Assembly (NCBI RefSeq): GCF_022045235.1 | Contig: NW_027266343.1 | Location: forward strand, 49,848,001-49,912,000 | From: Haliotis cracherodii | Taxonomy: Eukaryota | Length of the DNA: 64,000 nt | Direction: 5' to 3' | Part shown: positions 16,745 through 56,826 of the stretch, piece after piece | Position numbering within the stretch: position 1 is the first letter of the stretch | How the letters are laid out: each line of letters opens with the position of its first letter | Position numbers and translations under genes: made by a program | Notes under the pieces: model-generated | Database searches by the model: none | Seen by the model: only the letters and a program-made list of their open reading frames with translations | What the model was told of the DNA's origin: nothing

Positions 16745-17206
16745 TTTTATTGTTTTTCAAATTTGCAAGCAGATTTATACATTTATCATCCATAGCTGGC
16801 TCCCACAGGAAATATGCTTGGGTGAGATCAAGCGATATCTAGGTTGTAGATATCGCTGCAATGTAATTGCATCACAATGCTTTATAGACCATTGTGACGT
16901 CATTGGTTACCATTACGTCACAATCAAAAAACATCACTAATGGTTCTACTTTTTACAATTAAGACACTGCTTATTACTGTCTACAAATTGAAAAAATTGA
17001 ATGATGTTGGATGATAAATAAAATCTCACCCTAGTGTCTTTTAATATCAATTATATCAACACTCTTTGATTTATTTGATATCAAAAGAAACTCGGGTGAG
17101 ATTTTCTATGTAGTAACAAATTGAACTAATGAATCAAAACAGGGGAAGACATCTCTTTTTAGGAGTAAAAAGTCATTTCAGTATAATATTTGTCTTAATA
17201 TTTCAG

Positions 17207-17398
17207 ATTATGGTAACAATGGTTGTGTTCCTGACGACGATGGTAGTGGCCATCTTCTATGTGTGTCTGCTTCCACATATTTATTACGAGTCTATGGCAG
17301 CTACTGTGTTTCACCTGGTGTTTGGGCACTGGCTGCTTCTCATGATCATCTTCAACTACATCATGGCCTGCTTCACCAGCCCTGGACACCCCCCAGAT
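17207..17398 (+). CDS. ZDHHC16: ZDHHC16 coding exon 2 (TM1-TM2, TSPGHPP)
   Basis: tttcag acceptor, GAT|gtaagt donor, phase 0/0. Confidence 0.92.
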
Positions 17399-18000
17399 GT
17401 AAGTACACCAGCCCCGGACACCCCCCTGATGTAAGTACACCAGACACCCCCCAGATGTAAGTACACCAGCCCCGGACACCCCCCAGATGTAAGTACACCA
17501 GACACCCCCCAGATGTAAGCACCCCAGACACCCCCCAGATGTAAGTATACCAGCTCCAGACACCCTCCAGATGTAAGTATACCAGCCCCGGACACCCTCC
17601 AGATGTAAGTATACCAGCTCCAGACACCCTCCAGATGTAAGTATACCAGCTCCAGACACCCCCCAGATGTAAGTATACCAGCTCCAGACACCCTCCAGAT
17701 GTAAGTATACCAGCTCCAGACACCCTCCAGATGTAAGTATACCAGCTCCAGACACCCTCCAGATGTGAGTACCCCGGACACCCCACAGATGTAAGTATAC
17801 CAGCTCCAGACAACCTCCAGTCGAAGTACCCTGGACACCCCACAGATGTAAGTACACCAGCCCCAGACACCCTCCAGATGTAAGTATACCAGCTCCAGAC
17901 ACCCTCCAGATGTAAGTACCCCGGACACCCAACAGATGTAAATACACCAGACACCCTCCAGATGTAAGTACCCCAGACACCCCACAGATGTAAGTACACC
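17375..18000. repeat. 32/26-bp minisatellite made from the ZDHHC16 exon 2/intron junction
   Basis: Unit ACCAGCCCCGGACACCCCCCAGAT|GTAAGTAC, about 21 copies including the real junction. Confidence 0.95.
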
Positions 18001-18155
18001 ATGCCACTGTTACATGCAAGGACACTTCACCACAGATGCCTTCCAGATGTAATAACTTTGTTATATTAATCCAATAATAAAAAGGGTTATGTATAGTTTC
18101 AAATTCAGCTGATTGTAAGTATCATGTTGCTTACTGCCTGACTCTGTGTGTGCAG

Positions 18156-28284: not shown

Positions 28285-29759
28285 GGAATTTGTTTACAAA
28301 GTTGACAGCTCAAGAACCCATGCAGCCATTATTTTGCTCAGAGTCAAACTGATGTGACCTTCCATCGGGGGTGTCCTCGGATCTTCATGCAGATGTATTG
28401 TATCGGAGTGAAAGATCATATTATAAGGTGGGGATAATTGGGGTCATTTCAAAATAAAATAATAATCAGTTTAGCTTTATTGACCGTATCATAAACAATT
28501 CTGCAAACATGTCAAGGAAAAAGTGAAAAAGGGTCAGGTTTAAAGACATGGCTCTTGTGAGGGGGTGGCACAAAGATCAAATGAACAATCAAATCAACAA
28601 GTAGTTGAGCTTGATGTCAGTAAACAGTAGACAGTAGACCTGAGACTGTTTTTCCCGCTAAGTGTCACAGAACTTGTGTTCATTGTTGTAAATGTACATT
28701 TGTATATGTTATTGTTATGATTTTAATAAAATAACAAGTACAATGTTCGTAAATGACTTGTGTGTTTATGGTATGTAGCCATGTACAGTAAACTACAGTC
28801 ATAAAAAACTCAAAGGGACCACTAACTTGTTCATTATAACCATATATACAGCAAAGGGAACCAAAACATGCTCGCTATATCCGTCAGTTCATCATAAGCA
28901 TGTTTGTTATAAACATAGTCTACTGTACAGTGAAATGTAGACAAACATCTAGTCTGTGAAATGAACTATTTCCTAGACATAACTGGCAGAACACAAAACA
29001 AAACCCAATAATTCCTGAATAATGTCATTTATTGAGGTTTCACACGATTCCTGTTGGTGCATCACCAGCTCAAGTAAAACCTTACTGTCAGTGTCAGACT
29101 CGCCAGTATGCCGTCTGTGTCTCACGTAACATTTGTCATATAAAATTGCATCTATACTAAACACAAAATGTCAGGGATCATGAATATTTTTTTGGATTTT
29201 GTTTTCTAGTGAAGACTGACGACACAATTTCATAAAAATATCCCCCGAAATACTCATGATCCCTAACCTTTTGTGTTCAGTATAGAATGTGTAACATCTC
29301 ACACAACGAAATGATCCACTTTATTCGTTACCAGGCTGTGTGAGCACTGTCTTCACAAGTATAACTTATAACGTTGGAGGCCCTACGAGCCTGTAGTTGA
29401 GGCTGTTTGATGCATGGACACACACAGGGTGGGAATATCACTGTCAGTGTTCGTTGACATCGTCTCTCCAAATGCAATCCTAATATTGACAATGTTTTCT
29501 CAAAGTTTGCATGCTGGTGTGGGCCTAGGTTAGGCACATCGATGTTCAGAGACGCTGACTGCAATTGATGGCCACTCAACAACTCAACTCATGTCTCAGC
29601 TCCAGTTCATGTCAGTGTTTGCCACCATGAGTTAGCCACAGTGGGACATCAAGTAGACCCATGTGAAACAAGACATGGAATATGCTCTCTCCGATCTAGC
29701 ATACCAATGTTTCAATGAAATAACTCACTCAATCTCAGGTGAGGCATACCGGTTCCTAT

Positions 29760-30263
29760 GCTGGACTTGACAACACGCATATACTCTCCAATCAGGCACA
29801 CCAATGATGGATGCGACAACGCACATATACTCTCCAATCAGGCACACCAATGTTGGATGCGACAACACACGCTATCTTCAATCAGGCATACCAATGTTGG
29901 CCGTGATATAACACACGCTATCTTCGATCAGGCATACCAATGTTGGCCGTGATATAACACACGCTATCTTCGATCAGACATACCAATGTTGGACGTGATA
30001 TAACACGCTATCTTCGAACAGGCATACCAATGTTGGCCGTGATATAACACGCTATCTTCGATCAGGCATACCAATGTTGGCCGTGATATAACACACGCTA
30101 TCTTCGATCAGACATACCAATGTTGGCTGTGATATAACACACGCTATCTTCGATCAGGCATACCAATGTTGGACGTGATATAACACACGCTATCTTCGAT
30201 CAGGCATACCAATGATGGACGTGATATAACGCGCTATCTTCGATCAGGCATACCAATGTTGGA
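29760..30263. repeat. 44-46-bp minisatellite made from the MED28 last codons, stop and start of 3' UTR
   Basis: Minus-strand unit TCCAACATTGGTATGCCTGATCGAAGATAG-CGTGTGTTATATCACG, about 9 good plus 2-3 decayed copies. Confidence 0.93.
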
Positions 30264-30587
30264 CATAGTTTGTTCCAGGTAAGCTAGGGGCCCTGGTTGG
30301 TATGCTGGTGGGGGTTGAGGCGGAGGCATGACGAAGGGCTGAGGGACGGCACCTGGCATGGGGGGGCCAGGGTACGGGGCCATGCCTGGGTGCTGCTGTG
30401 GGTGCATCGGCTGGGGAGGGGGAGGTTGTTGCATCTGGGGGGGTTGCTGCTGGTGAAGCGAGGGCTGCTGGGGGGTTCCAGTGCCAGGCATGTTGCGGAG
30501 GAGGTTCTGCCAGTGCTGTAGACGTTCATGGTGTTTTTCTATCAGCTTCTCTTTTCTCTCAATCTCACTCTTCAGGTCGGCGATGTC
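30234..30587 (-). CDS. MED28: Mediator subunit 28, exon 4
   Basis: DIADLKSEIERKEKLIEKH...W..., P/Q-rich tract, GPLAYLEQ..SNI motif; tttcag acceptor. Confidence 0.93.
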   Translation of the reverse strand, partial: DIADLKSEIERKEKLIEKHHERLQHWQNLLRNMPGTGTPQQPSLHQQQPPQMQQPPPPQPMHPQQHPGMAPYPGPPMPGAVPQPFVMPPPQPPPAYQPGPLAYLEQTMSNIGMPDRR

Positions 30588-34584: not shown

Positions 34585-35875
34585 AAGGCGATTATCAATT
34601 AGAATAAGATAACATGGGTTTTTACTCTACATAGTTTGTTGGGTTTTTTAATGATAGATTGTGGCTATAGAACATATAAATTTATCTGAAAAATCTATTT
34701 CCATATCATTTGAATCCTAATTAGACTGACTTTATACACAGGAAAGTCAATACATCTACTGAGTTAGTAAATCATGTTCAGGTGTATGAAACAACACGTA
34801 GAGTGAGTGACTCTAAGGAGATGAACATGCGAATTTAACATTTTAACATAAGTTGAATGGACTATCATTAATCAACATGAGTTTCACCCACACCAGTGAC
34901 ACTCATGTTGCATACTCCTTCAGTTTGTGAATTTGTGTTGATATATTAACATTACCCTTTTTTGATACATGACAAATGTGATATTTTGCAATATATTAAG
35001 AAACAGTCGTAGTTTAAACTCTAATAACATGAACAACTGTAAAACACATCAAGACAACTTTCTCTTAAAAACAAGCCATCAACTGAATATTTACAATGTC
35101 TGTATGATGCTTACACTAACACACACACACAGATACATAGACACACAGACACCACTAAAGCGCGAGTAATTGTGATAAAAATGGCCATCCAAAAGTGTAT
35201 GATGTCCGAAAACCCATGATCTGACGATATATTTTATGTTGCAACATCAGGTTATTGAGAAAATGGCTGCTTGTGAAAATGGACCCAAACAAAACTAACG
35301 CAAATCTGTAGTGGTTTAGTTTATACCATTAGGGCATAGGATCCTTCTCTCCCATCTGGCATTATTAATTATTATTTTGTTTGTGTTTCAATTAATGGTT
35401 GTACTACCCACTGTCACATAGAAAGCCAGAGAGGCCACAGACAATGGCACATAATGGAGAAGTGAGGATTAGTGAAGGCCCTATATTTGAGTAAAGGGAG
35501 CTATGTATTAATTGTTATTTGGTTTGGGGCTTTTCAATCACAATTATTGAGAACTTCTGGGGCCCCAAGTTCTTTGGTTAGTTCATACAAGTGATTACCA
35601 ATTAACTTTGTTAGCATGGTTATCCATTGGTCCCTTTTATTTATGGGCATGGCTGACATTAGCGAAAGTGCACTCCGTGAACTGTGGAAATGATTAAATT
35701 GTGCACTGATGACAGTGGTGTGGAAAGAACGAAGAACAGATGGTCTGAAACATACAACTTCGAAACTCGGTGCTAAGAAGACGATAGTAGCATGTGCCCA
35801 GTTAAATGCATCCAATCTTTCCTTCAACATATAACTTGTTGGGGATTTCAGAAAAGAAATATCGCGCGTCTTTAC

Positions 35876-35941
35876 CTGAAACGCTGTTTCCAAATTATCA
35901 ATGATGTGAGTTTGGCCTCCATCACTTGTGGAGGCGGCCAT
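35876..35941 (-). CDS. MED28: MED28 exon 1 (199 aa total)
   Basis: aaaATGGCCGCC start; IIDNLETAFQ|gtaaag. Confidence 0.9.
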
Positions 35942-36572
35942 TTTTCGGTAAACAATGAAAACTTCGGTAACGTTCGGAATATTCCGCCTCAAGGTGTCAC
36001 CCGTTTATCCAGCATGCAGTTTCAAGTGTATGTATAATCGAGGTCATAACGGTCATCACTTTGTTTACTTCCGGGTTCATCTCAGCTGAGGGACACCACT
36101 CTTCTGTCTGAACGGGATCGAAATAGTGACAGCTTTATTCTCGGAACAACGACGATTCATATTTTGTTATATGGATAATCTGATGTAATGGTCTACATGG
36201 AAAATTGATGTTGTACGAATTTTATTGTAACCTTCAACAATTTTCCAACGATTCAGACAGACTCTGCGTGGTGTTTATTAGGAACCCGGAAGCACTGTTA
36301 GATTGGGTTTTAATACGTGCCTCCCTGTGAATAAGTTATTTAGGGCGTGTCATGATTAAAACTCTACATGACAGAGAGAGGGAGACAACTGACAGATCTT
36401 CCCACAATTTTGAAGTCACGTCATTTACTCAAGTCTTTACTGTGTCAGTGGTTCGAGCATATCTACTTTCTGACATCATATCCTGTTTATAACTCCTTAC
36501 ACTCTGTATGGGCAGTTGACGTAAACTATCAATTCTAAAAGTGAGGAAATAGTTTCTCACGTTTTTGCAACA
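35942..36572. promoter_or_regulatory. Probable bidirectional promoter MED28/TMEM127
   Basis: Divergent ATGs about 630 bp apart; ETS-like ACTTCCGG (~36067) and CCGGAAG (~36286). Confidence 0.6.
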
Positions 36573-36960
36573 ATGCCGTCAAGCACAAGTACAAGTAGGA
36601 GTTCAGGGAGAAATCGCGAGGGTGGCACAAGGCGAAATCGATCCAGAGTAAGATCTCGTACTCGACACCGAGAATCAAGAAGCCATTCACAGAGTCAGAG
36701 TCAGAGTCGTTTTCGCTTCAAGCTGAAGGAGCGAAACTACCCGGCAGCAGTGTGCAGCATGATAACGATCGTGCTGTTGTGTGTATCAATGGCTGAACCC
36801 CGATGGATATCCCTCCGCGGAGGGGGCTGCAGTTTGGCAGACACAAAGAATGGATATCTTCATTCTCTCGGTGTCAACCAATTCTTCTACAGCGGCAAAT
36901 TGGTTACCATGCAATCAGACAAGTCTATACACTACCATTTTGGTCCAGATCCAGATGAAG
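36573..36960 (+). CDS. TMEM127: Transmembrane protein 127-like, copy A, coding exon 1
   Basis: RS-rich N-terminus, ERNYPAAVC...LCVSMAEPRW motif; G|gtagtc donor. Confidence 0.85.
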
Positions 36961-38378
36961 GTAGTCATCATTTCAGCATCTGTAATCACTGTGTATATCT
37001 ATCATAGGGATGCTAGTGCCATAGTCATGATTTTAATTTAATACAGACATCCATTCCTTTATTTTTGTTTCTCAATAAGAACTTAAAGAGTGACTTTACT
37101 TATGGATCAGTCCATTTGGCACTCTTAGAACGTTTGATTAAATTGGTTTAAACTCTTGCACCACACGCACGTTTATGTTATGTATGCCAATCTAGCATTT
37201 ATATGTTTAATAATGTTTAAGCACTGCATCTCAGTTAATAATGATCACTAGTTACAAAGTCTAAACTATAGCAATACTTATTGTGATATATAGGGAGCTA
37301 AAGTGTTTGACAGCTATGGACAAATTCTGTCTTCTAAACACTAAATATGGTCATTTGCTGCCTTTTACATGTTTTAGTTGGCATGCATTCAGGGGAGATA
37401 ACGATGTGAGAGAAAAAATCACTTCCATGATTCCGCCATTGTGTCAATCAATTTGTGATTGAATTTCTGTGTAGGATAAGCAATACAAATAATAATCAAA
37501 CTTGTTATATATTGTTTACTCACTATTTGGGAAGATTGGAAGATTTTTTGAATGAACAAGTCGTTCAGAAATGATATGCCAAAAATATGTTTGTTCGCAA
37601 CCCCACCCAACCCCCCTGCTATAAATCAAATGGATGCTCCCAAATCTGCTAATGGGACACAGAAAAAATATTTCAAAATGTATCATTTGAAACGTGTATT
37701 ACCATGATTAAAGTACACAGTTGTATACCAGAAATACAGTGCTGTTCTAATAATGAACCAATTATTGTTCAAGACAGCCATCTTGATTTGAGAACTGCAT
37801 GAATGGTAGTTATCTACATTTGAGACCCGTGAAGATCCGGGGTAGAACATCTTCAGCAACCCATGCTTGCCGTAAAAGGCGACTATGCTTGTCGTAAGAG
37901 GTGACTAACAGGATCAGGTGGTCAGGCTCGCATGTCATCATATCCCAATTGCATGGATCAATGCTCATGATGTCAATCACTGGATTGTGTGGTCGAGACT
38001 CTATTATTTACAGACTGCTGTCACATAGTTGGAATATAGCAACAAACACAAAACAAAATATCTTCATTTGACATTATCATATGTAAAACAAAGGCACTTA
38101 TTCAGCGTTTTATATGTTTTATTTCATCTTGTCATCACCAACGTGAAAAGCCATGAGTTGGACAGGATAGGCCATACTTCTTTGATAGAAAATGAATCGG
38201 CTGTGTCACAATGCAGTTGCATTATCATGGTTATGCTTTGTTCTCATGTTATTGGTAAATAAGGCCAGGATATTACCAATCACTATTGCATTAGTGGCAT
38301 CACAATAGTGTGTTTAATTAAAATGACCCAAACAGGCGCACCTAGTACTGACTGTTGCCATGTAAACTGTCATTCCAG

Positions 38379-38549
38379 TGTTGATCAACTGTGTGGACAG
38401 CAAGTCGGTGCTGCTCTTCAAGATTGTCATCTTCTTCAGTTTTTTGACGATTGTGATCTGCATGGCTTCCTTCCTCCTCGATCTAACAGGGCCGTCCGGG
38501 AGAGTTCTGCAAAGATTTCACCGTAATGCAATCTTCAGCATCATTACAG
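38379..38549 (+). CDS. TMEM127: TMEM127 copy A exon 2
   Basis: NCV...FLLDLTGP...RNAIFSIIT; phase 1/1. Confidence 0.9.
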
Positions 38550-38747
38550 GTAGGTGGCAGTACACGGTACCCTGGCTAGAACGAGAACAGGCTCTTGTAC
38601 CTTGGTAACTACAAGTAAATATTATTCTGCAAAGGCCATTCTAACCATGTGCTAACCTTGCTAAGCATGAGAAGTACACCATGTGCAAGTAATGTCATAT
38701 ACCATGGCTATGCTGTACCTTTGACTTTAACTTACTATGTGTGGGTT

Positions 38748-39242
38748 CAATGTGTTTCACATGTTTCAGGGATCTTGTGCATGGTTATCAATGTGTTTCA
38801 CATGTTTCAGTAACCCTGTGCATTATTATCAATGTGTTTGACATGATTCAGTGACCCTGTGCATGGTTAACAATGTGTTTCACATGTTTCAGGGATCTTG
38901 TGCATGCTATCAATGTGTTTCACATGTTTCAGTGACCCTGTGCATGGTTAACAATTTGTTTCACATGTTTCAGTGACCCCGTGCATCATTATCAATGTTT
39001 CACATGTTTCAGTGACCCTGTGCATGGTTAACAATGTGTTTCACACGTTTCAGTGACCCTGTGCATGGTTAACAATGTGTTTCTCATGTTTCAGTGACCC
39101 TGTGTGGGGGAAATAATGCATGTTTGAAATGTTTCAGTGACCCATTGTGTGATTATCAATGTGTTTCACATGTTTCAGTGACCCTGTGTGTGGGTAATAA
39201 TGCATGTTTCACATGTTTCAGTGACCCTGTGTGTGGTCATCA
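38748..39242. repeat. ~41-bp minisatellite made from the TMEM127-A exon 3 acceptor junction
   Basis: Unit ATGTGTTTCACATGTTTCAG|TGACCCTGTGCATGGTTATCA, 12 copies, the last is the real acceptor. Confidence 0.93.
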
Positions 39243-39604
39243 ACCTGTTCTGCTACTGGATATCCTTCCTTGTTGAGCAAATCCAGAAGAAGACCAAGCA
39301 GGATCACGTGGAGGTCACATTTGACATCAGTTTCTACTTGGTGGCGGCGGCAGGAAGTGCCTCCGTGTTTGCCGTGGCGTGTAACTGTTTCCGACGCTAC
39401 CCCCTGCACGAGGATGTCTCATACCAGCGCCTCAATGAATGTGATGACATGGAGTATCTGGCTGCCCTGTACGACCAGCAGAGCGCCCCACCCCCTAACG
39501 TCTCCCCGCCCCCATATTCTCCCTCCCCCAACACACCAGCAGCAGGGGTCACACCCGCCCCACAGGAATCAGCTGCTGCTCAGTCTCTCAGTGTCAGTGC
39601 TTAG
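39222..39604 (+). CDS. TMEM127: TMEM127 copy A exon 3 (313 aa total)
   Basis: VTLCVVINLFCYW...VTFDISFYLVAAAG...PPPYSP (PY motif). Confidence 0.9.
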
Positions 39605-40477
39605 CAAGAAGCCAGTCTCGGGTGATGGGCTAGGTCGTACAGGGAATACAGCCACAGTTACGTTGGCCGGAGCTGGCACACATTCACATTCAGTTACAAG
39701 AGATGTGTCACAGACATGTACTGTAAGGGGTTGGGGTGGAGAGAAGCATTTGATGGTCATGAATATATATGACAGAATTTTCATGAATAGGTCACAATAA
39801 ATTAATAATTAAATTTGGATATGATTTTTTTAAGTATGAGTCAGGAGTGTATCTCTGTGTTATTGGTGTTCGTACGCTTAAGATTTAAAAATAGGCCATC
39901 ATCCGAGTATTTGCAATGTCTGTGTGACGACACACCCTTTGCTATAGCGCTAGTAATCAGGATAAGCAAATGATGTCCGAAAACATATGATGTCCGAAAA
40001 CGTATAATGTCCAAAAACCTATGATGTCCGAAAACCTATGATGTCCGAAAACTTATGATCCGACGATACATTAACTGTTGACGGATGCGATTTACAGGAA
40101 GCCTGCATGGACTTTGTACAGTGTGTATTTTATCAAGTAAGGAAAGAAGGACACATGTCGTGAGTTTCTTCGCCTGTAGGTGCTGATGACTGTAATACGA
40201 CGTGAGGCAGGGTGTTTGGTAGGGAGTCGGGTGGGGATGAAAATCTAAGAATTAATTTATAATGGCCACAGGCAGAGGCCTTTGGAAAAGAAATAGGCAA
40301 GGGAGAATTATTTTTTGGTTACATATTTAGAACATTACCATTGCTTTAGTGATGACTGCGAGGGCGTTGTTGCCTAGTTGGGGAAGACCATCTCATCTGC
40401 AAACATGACTGAATAATCTCTGTACACCTATACTATACCTTTGTATAATACCAGTCAGTTTGATCATGTTGATCTGA

Positions 40478-40985
40478 CTTTATAGCCACATGTAGGGTAC
40501 TATACGGTTATAGCCCTATGTAGGGTATTGTTCCCTGTTTATAACCATATGGAGGTTATTGTACCCTGTTTATAGCCACATGTGGGTACTGTACCCTGTT
40601 TATAGCCATATGTAGTGTACTGTACCCAGTGTTTATCGACATGTAGGGTATTGTACCCTGTTAATAGCCATATGTAGGGTACTGTACCCTGTTTATAGCC
40701 ATATGTAAGGTACTGTACCCTGTTAATAGCCATATGTAGGGTACTGTACCCAGTGTTTATCCACATGTAGGGTATTGTACCCTGTTAATAGCCATATGTA
40801 GGGTACTGTACCCTGTTTATAGCCATATGTATGGTACTGTACCCTGTTTGTAGCCATATGTAGGGTACTGTACTCTGTTTATAGCCACATGTAGGGTACA
40901 GTACCCTGTATATAGCCATATATAGGCACTGTACCCTGTTTATAGCCATATGTAAGGTACTGTACCCTGTTTAGAGCAATATGTC
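40478..40985. repeat. 31-bp minisatellite, variant 1 (GCCATATGTAGGGTACTGTACCCTGTTTATA)
   Basis: About 16 units with internal palindrome agggtac-t-gtaccct. Confidence 0.93.
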
Positions 40986-52291: not shown

Positions 52292-53491
52292 TTTGGACGT
52301 TATATGATACTAGTAAGGAAGGGCGATTCCTGTGGCCCTTGTCTGAGACAGCAGTCAGGAGGTGCATAGTTCAATCAAAATTGTGTACTGAACTGTTAAT
52401 AAACAACATGAATTTCAATGTACAGATTTCAGTCAACTGCAGGATTTGCAAAGCATTTGTACTAACAGATAGGAAAAAAAACATCAGGGAACATGACTAA
52501 CACTACTGACATGTCAGATATCACAGGGATAGATGTGAACACTGGTTCATTAGTGCATGACAACTGAAAATCTAGCAGGACTAGTTGTTGCTCCCCCATA
52601 TAGAGTTACTTTACTGAAACCACCAGTCCAAAATAAGATGAGGACAAGTTGGATATTACCCCTGTATCATATAAGTAGAAAAACAAAACAGATATTTTTC
52701 ATGTTCACTAGTGAACATTAGTGGTCATTAAACATGCTAAAGGTCACCAACTATTAACAATTACGGTCTACAGTCACAGTAAAGAGTGTCACATCGGCAA
52801 TATTTCAACCATATTGTGACGAGACCAATTTATGTATTGAGTAAATACATTTAAAGTTTATAAAAATCTGTCGACAATGGACAGTAAGACAGCTAGAGTA
52901 TTATAGATTTGTATTTGAAGCTAGCATATACTCTTAAAATATGACTATTCATTACAATACATACTGAAAGTGAGCCATAGATCACCAGCAACCAAAATTA
53001 GGCCACCAGACCAGGGACCATGGGAACTTACGGTACTTCTGCTACCTTGATAACATGAATCTGAAGCTTGACCCTCTGAAGATACTGGGTGAGAATTTGT
53101 CTTTGGAAATCCATGCTCCTTGTAAGAGGCGACTAACGGGATGGGGCGGTCAGGTTCGCTGACTTGGTTGACATATGCCATCATATCCCAAATGAGTAGA
53201 TCAATGTTATTGGTATCAATCTCTGGATTGTCTGGTTGAGACTTGATTATGTACAGACTGCCATTATATAGCAGGAATATTGCTGAGTGCGATGTTAGTA
53301 AAAAAAGCAAAGATAAAACGTTGCTCTGACTACCAGGAAATAATACTGAAAGTGAGTTGGCGCTCTTGTCATGAGTCAAACTATTATGAATATTCAAAAT
53401 GGCCTTTATGCCTTTGGCACACCTTGATATGTTTCTAGTAATGAAGTTTGTCTTTCTTGTTTGACAGGCATGCATCAGTAGACTACCCACT

Positions 53492-53879
53492 ATGCCAAGT
53501 TCACGGAGTTCAGGGAGAACTCGAAGTCGGGAGTCGACATCAAGAAGAAGTCGCTCAAGCAACCGATCACGCAGTCGTCATAGCGATGGCCAGAGTCGCA
53601 GTCGACGCCATTCACACTGTAATTTCAAACAGCGTGAACGGAACTTTGCCGGAGCCGTTTGTAACATGATAACTATTGTGATTCTGTGTGTGGCCTTGGC
53701 GGAACCCAAATGGGTGTCCATCTACAATGGACTCTGTAGCCTCATCCAGAGACCGCGGGGAGGATTGCACTTCCTGGGAGCGTTTCAGTTCTTCTATAGT
53801 GGACATTTTATAGCGCCGGGCACATATCCAGACGAAGGCTCTAGTGTTTTATATCAGTATGGGCCCAGCATGCTAGATG
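53492..53879 (+). CDS. TMEM127: TMEM127-like copy B, coding exon 1
   Basis: Paralog of 36573-36960, same 388-nt length; acceptor at 53468 implies an upstream non-coding exon; G|gtaaga donor. Confidence 0.87.
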
Positions 53880-55137
53880 GTAAGATACATGCCAGGTGAA
53901 CATTCTTGTGGTAACCAGCGGTAGAAACGTAACATTTTTAGTCCACTAGTCCTTACAATGATAACATATAGCAAAACCCTTAAAAATGGCAAATTTCATG
54001 ATATCTTAACTCTTGGGCAGTTTGGCCAGGACTACAGGGCTAGTGTCAATTTCTAATGCTGGTTTAACCAATGAATTAAAATGCACAAAATCTTTCAAGA
54101 TAGCTGAACCTTTTTACATATTTTAGGCATTAGCTGCATTCATTCTAGTAAGTGAAGGGACGGTGGGGTAGCCTAGTGGTTAAAGCGTTCGCTCGTCATG
54201 CCGAAGACCCAGGTTCGATTCCCCACATGGGTACAATGTGAAGCCCATTTCTGGCGTCCCCCGCCGTGATATTACTGGAATATGAAGCAGCGTACTCACT
54301 CACTTTAGTAAGGGAAATGCTACTAAACTATGGAATAGGTTCACACTTTAAATAGAAATAGCAACACAAATTACAAAGAAAGACACACTCCCCATTAAGT
54401 CTGCATTGTAATGATAAACAAACACAGTTAATTGTGCAGGATGCAACAAACTTGTATCATCCAAAACTGTCCCCAACAAGAGATATTGCTTGGTTGAGAA
54501 ATTGCTTCACAATGCTTTGCAGACCATTGTGACTCCATTGGATACCATGACGTCACAATCAAATGACATCACTAATGGCTCTTCTACTGAAGCCGTTAGC
54601 AGTACTTTTTACACTTAACAATGCTTAAGACACATCTTAGTACCGTCTACAAACTCAAAAAGTTGGAAGAATGATGTTTGATGATAAATAGAATCTCACT
54701 CTTGTGTCTTTTGATATCAAATATATCAAAACTTGTTGATAAAGGTTTAAAACTCCTTTGCAAGACTCAGAGTTTTGAACTTTTATCGACTCGTGTTGAT
54801 ATATTTGATATCAAACGACACTTGGGTGAGATTCTCTATATCACTACGATGCAAACTTTATCATGTCTTTGGGGATTGTGTCTTTGTTTGTAATTTGTGT
54901 GGCTATTTCTATTTAAAGTGTGAACATATTCCATTGTTTGGTAGCTCTCTGCTGGGTTTCTTTGGTAGGCCTGAAGTGACAAAAGGTGGGTTTCTATTTA
55001 ACAAGGGAACAAGAGGTTCAAGTACAATGTATTTTCCTCTGAATTTATGAAAAATAAGAATCCTATTTTGCCTGCCAAGGCGCTTAGTTTGGAATCCTTT
55101 GCTAATTCTGTACTGCTATGTTTGAATGTTTCCCCAG

Positions 55138-55308
55138 TAATGGCCAACTGTGTGACCACAAAGGCTGTGATGGTGTTCAAGTGGGTGATAGCTGCCTCGT
55201 GTGTCGCAGTCATTTGTAGCCTCATCGCCTTCCTGCTGGATTTGACTGGGCCCACGCAGAGGACCTTCCGCATGTTACATCGCAACGCCATCTTCAGCAT
55301 ACTCACAG
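55138..55308 (+). CDS. TMEM127: TMEM127 copy B exon 2
   Basis: NCVT...AFLLDLTGP...RNAIFSILT; 171 nt as in copy A. Confidence 0.9.
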
Positions 55309-55556
55309 GTACACAGAACAAGTTAAGATGCACCACACTCAGTTTAATAAAAGTCAGATCTTAGTTCTTGCCACCGCTAAACAGATCTCTGACAACATCC
55401 CGTACAGGTCATGTCAGAAGACCTTTCATTCGACCAATCAGAGCATTGCTTACCAGATCGGAGAAAGTGAAAGTCGGAATGTGCTTTTCGATCATGCAAC
55501 CCCGAAAAGGGTAACACAGGGTATTCCAAACAACAGTTCGGGCTCTACACACAGAA

Positions 55557-56093
55557 AATGCACAACACTGCCAAACACGAGGGAAGATGCACAATACTGC
55601 CAAACACGAGGGATGAAGCACAATACTGCCAAACACGAGGGATGATGCACAGTACTGCCAAACACGAGGGAAGATGCACAATACTGCCAAACACGAGGGA
55701 AGATGCACAGTACTGCCAAACACGAGGGAAGATGCACAGTACTGCCAAACACGAGGGATGATGCACAATACTGCCAAACACGAGGGATGATGCACAATAC
55801 ATATGTACTATACACAAGATGCATAACTCTACATATAAGGGAAGATGCACAATACTGCCAAACACGAGGGATGATGCACAATACATATGTACTACACACA
55901 AGATGCCTAACTCTACATACGAGGGAAGATGCACAACACTACGCACTTGTGAGGATGCACAATACTACTCACTAGGGAAGATGCACAATACTACACACTA
56001 GGGAAGATGCACAATACACATGAACTATACGCAAGATGCCTAACTCTACATACGAGGGAAGATGCACAACACTACGCACTAGTGAGGATGCAC
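55557..56093. repeat. 29-bp minisatellite following a truncated M2 MITE (~55345-55540)
   Basis: Unit GGGAAGATGCACAATACTGCCAAACACGA with higher-order variants. Confidence 0.9.
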
Positions 56094-56428
56094 ATATCAC
56101 TGCATGCTATGATTTAGTAACTCTTGTATGATTCTCTGTCATTTTTGTATGGCTTACCACCATCCCCTTATCATAAAAGGCGACTCAGGGGCTTGGATGA
56201 TGGCATGTCATCATATCCCAATTGTGTGGATTGATGCTCATGATCTAAACAATCTGGTCTAGACCTGATGATTTACAGACCGCCATCACATAGCTGGAAT
56301 ACTGCTGAGTGCCATGTTAAGCAACGAACACTCACTCACTCACTCATCACTCACTTTTGTGTGATTCATTCATTCACTCTTGTATGATTCACTCTCTCTT
56401 GTATTATACATTAACTCTTGTGTTGCAG

Positions 56429-56826
56429 TTGTGATCTGTGTGATTGTGAACATCCTGTGCTATTTCATCACGACACAAGTACAGCAGCTTCAAGGGGACA
56501 ACAAGAAAGTAGAGGTGTCCTTTGATGTCAGTTTCTACCTGATCTCGGCAGCGGGAAGCGTGTCCGTGTTTGCTGTGGCCTGCAACTGCCTGCGCCGATA
56601 CCCTCTCCACGAGGAGCCCCGCCCTCAGCCGTACTTGCTGGACGACTGCGACGACCTGCACTCTCTACTGTCTCCCTACAGTCACGACGTTTCCTTCATA
56701 GGGCAACTGCCGCCACCCCCAGCCTACTCCCCCAATGTCCCCTCTACAGCCCCATCTGCAACAACATCTAACACATCTGCAACCTCCTCCACCCCTGGCC
56801 CAGCTCCTGCTAGTGTGGTCGCTTGA
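56429..56826 (+). CDS. TMEM127: TMEM127 copy B exon 3 (318 aa total)
   Basis: VVICVIVNILCYF...VSFDVSFYLISAAG...PPPPAYSP. Confidence 0.9.

What the first reader, a model, noticed from the sequence alone, without database searches (positions are those of the whole stretch)
38748..39242. Eleven decoy 3' splice sites before TMEM127-A exon 3
Seen: TTCAG at about 38769, 38810, 38851, 38892, 38932, 38973, 39012, 39053, 39094, 39137 and 39178, each followed by a copy of the exon start; the real AG ends at 39221. The nearest decoy shifts frame (+43), and in-frame decoys meet a TGA at or before 39179. The spliceosome must skip 11 near-identical acceptors. Paralog B has no such array and is a natural control.
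Basis: seen in the sequence. Interest (0 to 1): 0.7.

Follow-up and report, generated by a model that had tools for sequence, protein, structure and literature searches.

The report
Splice-acceptor "mirage" repeat in mollusc TMEM127
The end of an intron and the first 22 bases of the next exon of a mollusc TMEM127 gene are repeated eleven extra times, yet the transcripts assembled from three runs join only to the last copy, so this is likely a tolerated repeat of a kind already described in lancelets and found at other genes of this genome.

Summary
A 41-bp minisatellite (38747-39243, 12.1 units) consists of 19 intron bases plus 22 exon-3 bases of a TMEM127 gene. All 11 extra AGs lie where stated, and each would truncate the 313-aa protein to 200-246 aa. 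Contigs from three RNA-like runs (two organisms) join exon 2 (38549) to 39222, the last AG. A related organism's DNA-like run also holds such units, so this is not an assembly artefact.

The layout is a known kind: lancelet "mirage" minisatellites (PMC3087553); human CBS 844ins68 and F7 are analogues. It recurs in this genome: at UNC80 exons, at 1 of 124 acceptors and 2 of 120 donors in a kinase-exon sample, and at three more gene borders in this window. This scan has reported it several times before, in this genome and others.

Seven of 11 decoys outscore the real site, so the exon downstream, not site strength, likely decides. Exon 3 appears terminal, which weakens the proposed NMD test. Paralog B (48% identical) is a poor control. 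Ordinary; low interest.

The parts
36573..36960 (+). TMEM127-A coding exon 1 (ATG to donor); the transcript begins further upstream
   Evidence: open model of 313 aa; contigs X1, X2, X5 cover 36450-36958 and skip 1418 nt, GT..AG
38379..38549 (+). TMEM127-A exon 2
   Evidence: PF20517 positions 1-56, E 7e-14; contig pieces 38377-38549
38550..39221 (+). intron 2 (672 nt, GTAGGT..TTTCAG); its last 475 nt (71%) are the array
   Evidence: skipped by the contigs of X1, X2, X5 (record coordinates)
38747..39243 (+). 41-bp 'mirage' minisatellite: unit = last 19 nt of intron + first 22 nt of exon 3; 12.1 copies; units 63-98% alike (mean 82%); two 43-nt variant units near the exon
38765..39178 (+). eleven acceptor copies not used by the contigs (AG ends 38769, 38810, 38851, 38892, 38932, 38973, 39012, 39053, 39094, 39137, 39178); each would give a 200-246 aa product
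39217..39221 (+). the acceptor that is used (TTCAG), last unit of the array
   Evidence: the loose end before 39219 in X1 is the end of exon 2; record coordinates are continuous in X1, X2, X5
39222..39604 (+). TMEM127-A exon 3, coding part (stop TAG 39602-39604); the 3' UTR continues to at least 40156 without a GT..AG joint; purine-rich GAAGAAGA about 60 nt into the exon
   Evidence: PF20517 positions 56-112, E 8.5e-16
53492..56826 (+). paralog TMEM127-B (predicted exons 53492-53879, 55138-55308, 56429-56826; 318 aa; 47.5% identical over 265 aa); no junction copies; not checked against RNA

Best explanation
This is a minisatellite made of head-to-tail copies of the gene's own intron-2/exon-3 junction (a 'mirage'), which the assembled transcripts skip and which is likely a tolerated by-product of the frequent tandem duplications in this genome's introns. 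Origin (inferred): a 41-bp slippage or unequal-exchange duplication, possibly seeded by the TCAA/TGTGTGG likeness between the intron 22 nt before the AG and exon base 22, then expansion and turnover; it predates the split from organism B. Splicing (use of the last AG is shown in contigs; the reason is inferred): the copies carry only 22 exon bases, so only the last AG is followed by a whole exon with purine-rich enhancer-like words and the 3' end. Exon definition would therefore commit to it even though many decoys have equal or better local signals. Selection (inferred) would remove expansions that disturbed this choice or extended into the coding exon, so the array ends where the exon begins.
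For: Unit anatomy and 0 of 500 shuffles. Three RNA-like runs, two studies and two organisms, each have one contig running exon 1-2-3 through 38549|39222 (X1 record 1000-1172 then 253-1002; X2 912-1084 then 1082-1358; X5 724-896 then 58-726). The DNA-like run X19 (organism B) has contigs that end inside the first unit (38777) and start inside the last (39205). It also has unit contigs at about twice single-copy depth and the G/A letters diagnostic of the 39095 variant unit. Seven of 11 decoys score above the real site on a matrix from 125 kinase acceptors of this genome. Four decoys have TTAAC at -23 and the real site has no YTRAY. Only the real AG has GAR-type hexamers within 90 nt (4 against 0 for all 11). 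The same layout occurs elsewhere in the genome: two of three consecutive UNC80 exons, 1 of 124 acceptors and 2 of 120 donors in kinase genes, and a triple-TGTTTCAG pattern with 5842 matches against 677 for the reversed word and 4945 for the three other last bases together. Published mirages did not disturb splicing (PMC3087553 section 16; PMC3902484 passages).
Against: Only Logan contigs were available. They drop rare forms, so minor decoy use is not excluded, and 'RNA' is the tool's guess (supported by the skipped introns). The exon-definition step was not tested, and the enhancer count is a crude motif count. The acceptor matrix rests on heuristically called sites. In the kinase sample real acceptors were not richer in junction arrays (1 of 124) than acceptor-like AGs away from the known exons (34 of 2215), so the arrays may simply reflect a general high minisatellite load (11.8% of those loci). 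Persistence in two organisms is compatible with neutrality but does not prove it.
Confidence: 0.82

Rival explanations
1. The array is a regulatory decoy field: a share of transcripts uses a decoy AG, giving truncated 200-246 aa TMEM127 without its C-terminal part, and unit number tunes the dose of full-length protein.
For: Every decoy truncates the protein. Seven of 11 decoys score higher than the real site. The array is shared with organism B.
Against: The contigs of three runs pass the junction unbroken at 39221. The same layout occurs at unrelated genes (UNC80, kinases). Units are only 82% alike on average and some AG contexts have decayed (38851 and 39137 score 3.6 and 6.0). Published mirages gave no aberrant mRNA (PMC3087553, PMC3902484).
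Confidence: 0.08
2. Same neutral origin, but the last AG is chosen by something other than exon definition: for example the 43-nt variant unit next to the exon supplies the preferred branch point (TAATAAT at -27..-21), or upstream units are masked by structure or bound proteins.
For: The unit before the real AG is a 43-nt variant with TAATAAT that is shared only with the unit before 39137.
Against: The sister variant unit (AG 39137) is not the site used. Four decoys have a closer branch consensus (TTAAC at -23). RNA structure was not examined.
Confidence: 0.07
3. The array is an assembly or sequencing artefact.
For: No raw or long DNA read of the assembled individual was available, so the exact unit number is unverified.
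Against: The units differ from each other (63-98%), with nested variant types. An independent DNA-like run of another organism holds units at both ends, including the same variant unit.
Confidence: 0.02

Closest known systems
Amphioxus 'mirage' minisatellites (Adh3; globins BflGb6/BflGb9; troponin C; PGBD5). PMC3087553 (passages and section 16 read), PMC3902484 (passages read)
   Same: Tandem copies of an intron 3' end plus exon start (as in BflGb6), many keeping the AG; units 81-100% alike in BflGb6; unit size within the 10-72 bp quoted for Adh3; normal splicing is kept.
   Different: Here in a mollusc, with 11 extra copies against 3-6 in BflGb6; length polymorphism and somatic instability were not testable here.
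Human CBS 844ins68 (PMC2630376, passages read; it cites Romano et al. 2002, not read)
   Same: Duplication of an intron/exon junction in which the more distal site is strongly favoured and the extra segment is spliced out.
   Different: A single 68-bp duplication and a polymorphism, not a 12-unit array.
Human F7 intron 7 37-bp VNTR (PMC1557585, abstract and Discussion read)
   Same: Minisatellite spanning an exon/intron border; near-identical splice sites stay silent and only the one next to the intact exon is used.
   Different: Donor side. There the used site is also the first met in 5'-3' scanning, whereas here the used acceptor is the last, so simple first-AG scanning from the intron cannot explain it.
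TMEM127 family (Pfam PF20517)
   Same: Exons 2 and 3 of both paralogs pass the curated cut-off and together cover the profile.
   Different: Two tandem paralogs, 48% identical, in this genome; their function was not examined.

Membership tests
Mirage minisatellite (PMC3087553) | Tandem, minisatellite-like repeat whose unit spans an intron/exon boundary of the host gene | tested here: met
   unit = 19 intron + 22 exon bases, 12.1 copies
Mirage minisatellite (PMC3087553) | Many units keep the AG/GT splice signal | tested here: met
   11 of 11 extra units keep TTCAG
Mirage minisatellite (PMC3087553) | Regular splicing is kept; the authentic site at the edge of the cluster is used | tested here: met
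   3 of 3 RNA-like runs laid have a contig joining 38549 to 39222; rare forms are not excluded
Mirage minisatellite (PMC3087553) | Tandem-repeat turnover: similar inner units, diverged boundary units | tested here: met
   inner units at 38852, 38933, 39013 and 39054 are 95-97% alike; the units next to the exon are 62-86% like the inner ones
Mirage minisatellite (PMC3087553) | Length instability between haplotypes or in somatic cells | not testable with these tools
   only short-read contigs, which break in the array
TMEM127 (PF20517) | Match above the curated cut-off over the profile | tested here: met
   52.2 and 58.5 bits against a cut-off of 25.3; profile positions 1-56 and 56-112 of 113
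Regulated unproductive splicing coupled to NMD | The alternative acceptor is used at a measurable level | tested here: inconclusive
   only the last AG is seen in contigs, which drop rare forms
Regulated unproductive splicing coupled to NMD | The premature stop lies upstream of a further exon junction | tested here: not met
   no GT..AG joint between 39222 and 40156 in X1 and X2; X5 pieces reach 40300; a junction further downstream is not excluded

The most novel reading that the evidence does not exclude
This mollusc carries on the order of a thousand or more mirages (about 1-2% of junctions, extrapolated), each a natural competition in which the spliceosome passes up to about 65 equal or stronger acceptors to reach the last one. 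At TMEM127-A the heritable unit number would act as a dial that leaks transcripts into a truncated, NMD-escaping 200-aa form. The genome would then be a massively replicated natural test of how 3' splice sites are chosen and of repeat-length splicing QTL in an invertebrate.
Probability: 0.1. Interest if true: 0.55.

Novelty: new member of a known kind. Interest (0 to 1): 0.18.

Why it matters
By itself it is one more mirage and matters little. Its use is as a clean natural substrate for an open question, how the distal acceptor wins when stronger look-alikes lie upstream: short intron, 11 copies, unambiguous read-out, and a terminal exon, so that junction-dependent NMD likely does not hide mistakes. 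It is also a warning for annotation, because ab initio gene finders can pick a decoy AG in such arrays. Four literature searches listed no mollusc mirage paper, so a genome-wide description in molluscs may be unpublished. That library lacks most subscription journals, and this single locus is not that description.

Tried and rejected
No listed run is on record as RNA ('no RNA holder listed'); X1, X2 and X5 are treated as RNA because they skip GT..AG introns.

X1, X2 and X5 give no cover over 38583-38800 or 39100-39181, although a transcript using any decoy would run through the latter. Contigs drop rare forms, so I do not count this as evidence of absence.

The first idea that the C5 array (70% alike) is a dispersed copy of the same satellite was rejected: it is an independent mirage of an UNC80 exon that shares the common acceptor word.

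Stronger local signals at the real site as the reason for the choice: rejected. A 3' UTR intron at 40157: not supported, because the contigs land in the 31-bp array without a preceding AG.

Enrichment of mirages at true acceptors over acceptor-like intronic AGs was not shown in the kinase sample (1 of 124 against 34 of 2215).

Of the 9 chromosome-1 arrays fetched, 4 showed no clear exon behind them. Four exon-like frames had no Pfam match above cut-off, and one of them, searched in the PDB sequences, had no meaningful match.

Gene-model translations were off by one base for gene A and were redone. No structure, complex or protein-database search was needed.

Full report
Observation. The array is real: TRF reports 38747-39243, period 41, 12.1 copies, 83% matches. 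Each unit is the last 19 bases of intron 2 followed by a copy of the first 22 bases of exon 3; identity to the real junction is 15-18 of 19 on the intron side and 11-18 of 22 on the exon side. All 11 upstream copies pass an 80% match to the junction 20-mer, none of the other seven TMEM127 junctions in the window has any copy, and 0 of 500 shuffles of the intron gave one. The array makes up 475 of the 672 bases of intron 2.

The gene. Exons 36573-36960, 38379-38549 and 39222-39604 give an open 313-aa protein. Exons 2 and 3 match Pfam TMEM127 at profile positions 1-56 and 56-112, so the frame fits only if 39221 is the acceptor. A second paralog at 53492-56826 is 47.5% identical over 265 residues. 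Joining exon 2 to any of the 11 decoys gives 200-246 aa. Six of them give exactly 200 aa, because 41 = 2 + 13 codons puts the next unit's TGA (TAA in one case) in frame. That is a consequence of the unit length and needs no selection.

Which AG is used. No run is on record as RNA. In X1 and X2 (organism A, 2 differences in 515 exon-1 bases) and X5 (organism B, 14 in 515) a single contig skips intron 1 at GT..AG and then continues from exon 2 into exon 3. Record positions are 1000-1172 then 253-1002 (X1), 912-1084 then 1082-1358 (X2), and 724-896 then 58-726 (X5). The 3-base overlap is the shared CAG, so the joint is 38549|39222. The loose letters before 39219 in X1 are the end of exon 2. These are contigs, so minor use of a decoy cannot be excluded. 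After the stop, X1 and X2 run to 40156 and X5 pieces to 40300 without a GT..AG joint. Exon 3 is therefore probably terminal, and decoy products would likely not be targets of junction-dependent NMD (inference from the general rule, recalled).

Age and reality. Run X19 (organism B, covers introns, so read as DNA) has a contig that ends at 38777 inside the first unit and one that starts at 39205 inside the last. Between them lie short unit contigs, one at depth 74 against 31-34 for unique sequence, one with G at 39191 and A at 39195, the letters that distinguish the window's variant unit at 39095. The array, including a variant unit, is thus older than the split between the two organisms, which differ by about 3% in exons and 5% in intron 1. 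Inner units are 95-97% alike and the units next to the exon are more diverged, the turnover pattern described for lancelet mirages. The array starts and ends with TCAA, and the left flank resembles the exon start. A pre-existing short repeat may have seeded the first duplication (inference).

Why the last copy wins. On a matrix built from 125 heuristically called kinase acceptors of this genome, the real site scores 8.2; seven decoys score higher (up to 11.6), one equal and three lower. Four decoys carry TTAAC at -23, and the real site has no YTRAY in -40..-18. Local strength therefore does not explain the choice. What the last AG alone has is a complete exon behind it, with four GAR-type hexamers in the first 90 bases against none for any decoy. 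Exon definition across the terminal exon is the most likely mechanism, but it is inferred, not tested. The F7 paper notes that scanning is widely accepted for 3' sites (PMC1557585, Discussion); a first-AG scan can only hold here locally, after a branch point in the last unit has been chosen.

How common it is. The only other match to the region in the genome is a 37-bp array of 66 units on C5 that ends exactly at an UNC80 exon. The next two UNC80 exons are also preceded by arrays, one containing the AG and exon start and one abutting the acceptor. A pattern of three TGTTTCAG spaced 25-40 apart has 5842 matches, against 677 for the reversed word and 4945 for the three other last bases together, about 3.5-fold per base. 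These are overlapping matches, not arrays. I fetched the 9 arrays behind the first 100 listed matches: 1 ends at a Pfam-confirmed exon (LDL-receptor class A), 4 at exon-like frames without a Pfam match above cut-off, and 4 at nothing clear. In a sample chosen by gene rather than by repeat (136 HMM-located exons in 48 kinase loci), 1 of 124 acceptors (95% interval 0.1-4.4%) and 2 of 120 donors had two or more junction copies; a third donor array was seen by eye. Array ends lay near 5 of 124 acceptors and 7 of 120 donors, against 2.4% and 2.1% of random positions. Against a junction-specific mechanism: 34 of 2215 acceptor-like AGs away from the known exons also end a run of copies (some may be unrecognised exons), and tandem repeats cover 11.8% of these loci. 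In this window alone three more arrays sit at gene borders. So the TMEM127-A array is one of many.

Comparison with what is known. Ebner et al. [quoted passage not shown] PMC3902484 (passages) adds PGBD5 and troponin C. CBS 844ins68 (PMC2630376, passages) is a single junction duplication with the distal site favoured. The F7 VNTR (PMC1557585, abstract and Discussion) is the donor-side mirror. Four of five mirage features were met and one could not be tested. Searches listed no mollusc case; I saw only listings for the other hits and no supplements. Earlier notes of this scan report the same class many times, several in this genome, which they call an abalone (unchecked; the taxon is not from my own calls).

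Verdict. A real, correctly described feature, and a new member of a known class. Probably neutral; of value mainly as a test substrate for acceptor choice. Interest 0.18.

Noticed in passing
window 1-839: 30-bp array that begins at the donor of a minus-strand exon matching NOP5NT (PF08156, E 5e-26); each unit repeats GTGAGACC from the donor.
   Followed up: partly
window 17375-18001: 32-bp array whose first unit covers the end of a plus-strand exon-like frame (17150-17398, no Pfam match) and GTAAGT: a donor-side mirage like F7.
   Followed up: partly
window 29687-30264: 46-bp array that repeats the last codons and the stop of Med28 (minus strand, PF11594) into its 3' UTR.
   Followed up: partly
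L047 4168-9625 (G000:C5:33.740-33.746 Mb): Three consecutive UNC80 exons, each preceded by its own minisatellite (37 bp x 66, 40 bp x 31, 38 bp x 5) ending at the acceptor.
   Followed up: partly
window 40157-40559: Contigs of X1 and X2 leave the window sequence at 40156 and continue with letters of the 31-bp array (40479 onward); no AG at the landing site, and X5 and X19 do not skip it. Probably a deletion allele in the 3' UTR of organism A.
   Followed up: no
window 35534-36004 and 52945-53577 (minus strand): Open frames of 156 and 210 codons upstream of TMEM127-A and -B, without a Pfam match; the first may be a divergently transcribed gene.
   Followed up: no
window 37823-38037: Very high-copy interspersed repeat in intron 1 of TMEM127-A (summed contig depth up to about 10^7 in X19).
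   Followed up: no
L103 ~2095, L132 ~547, L094 ~2347, L115 ~3270 (gene-strand coordinates): Kinase-gene mirages: donor arrays of 75 bp (at least 8 copies), 35 bp x 21 and 39 bp x 28, and an acceptor array of 52 bp x 17.
   Followed up: partly
L059-L064 (G000:C12:28.406-28.415 Mb): Six near-identical intronless kinase frames in tandem at a spacing of about 1.6 kb.
   Followed up: no
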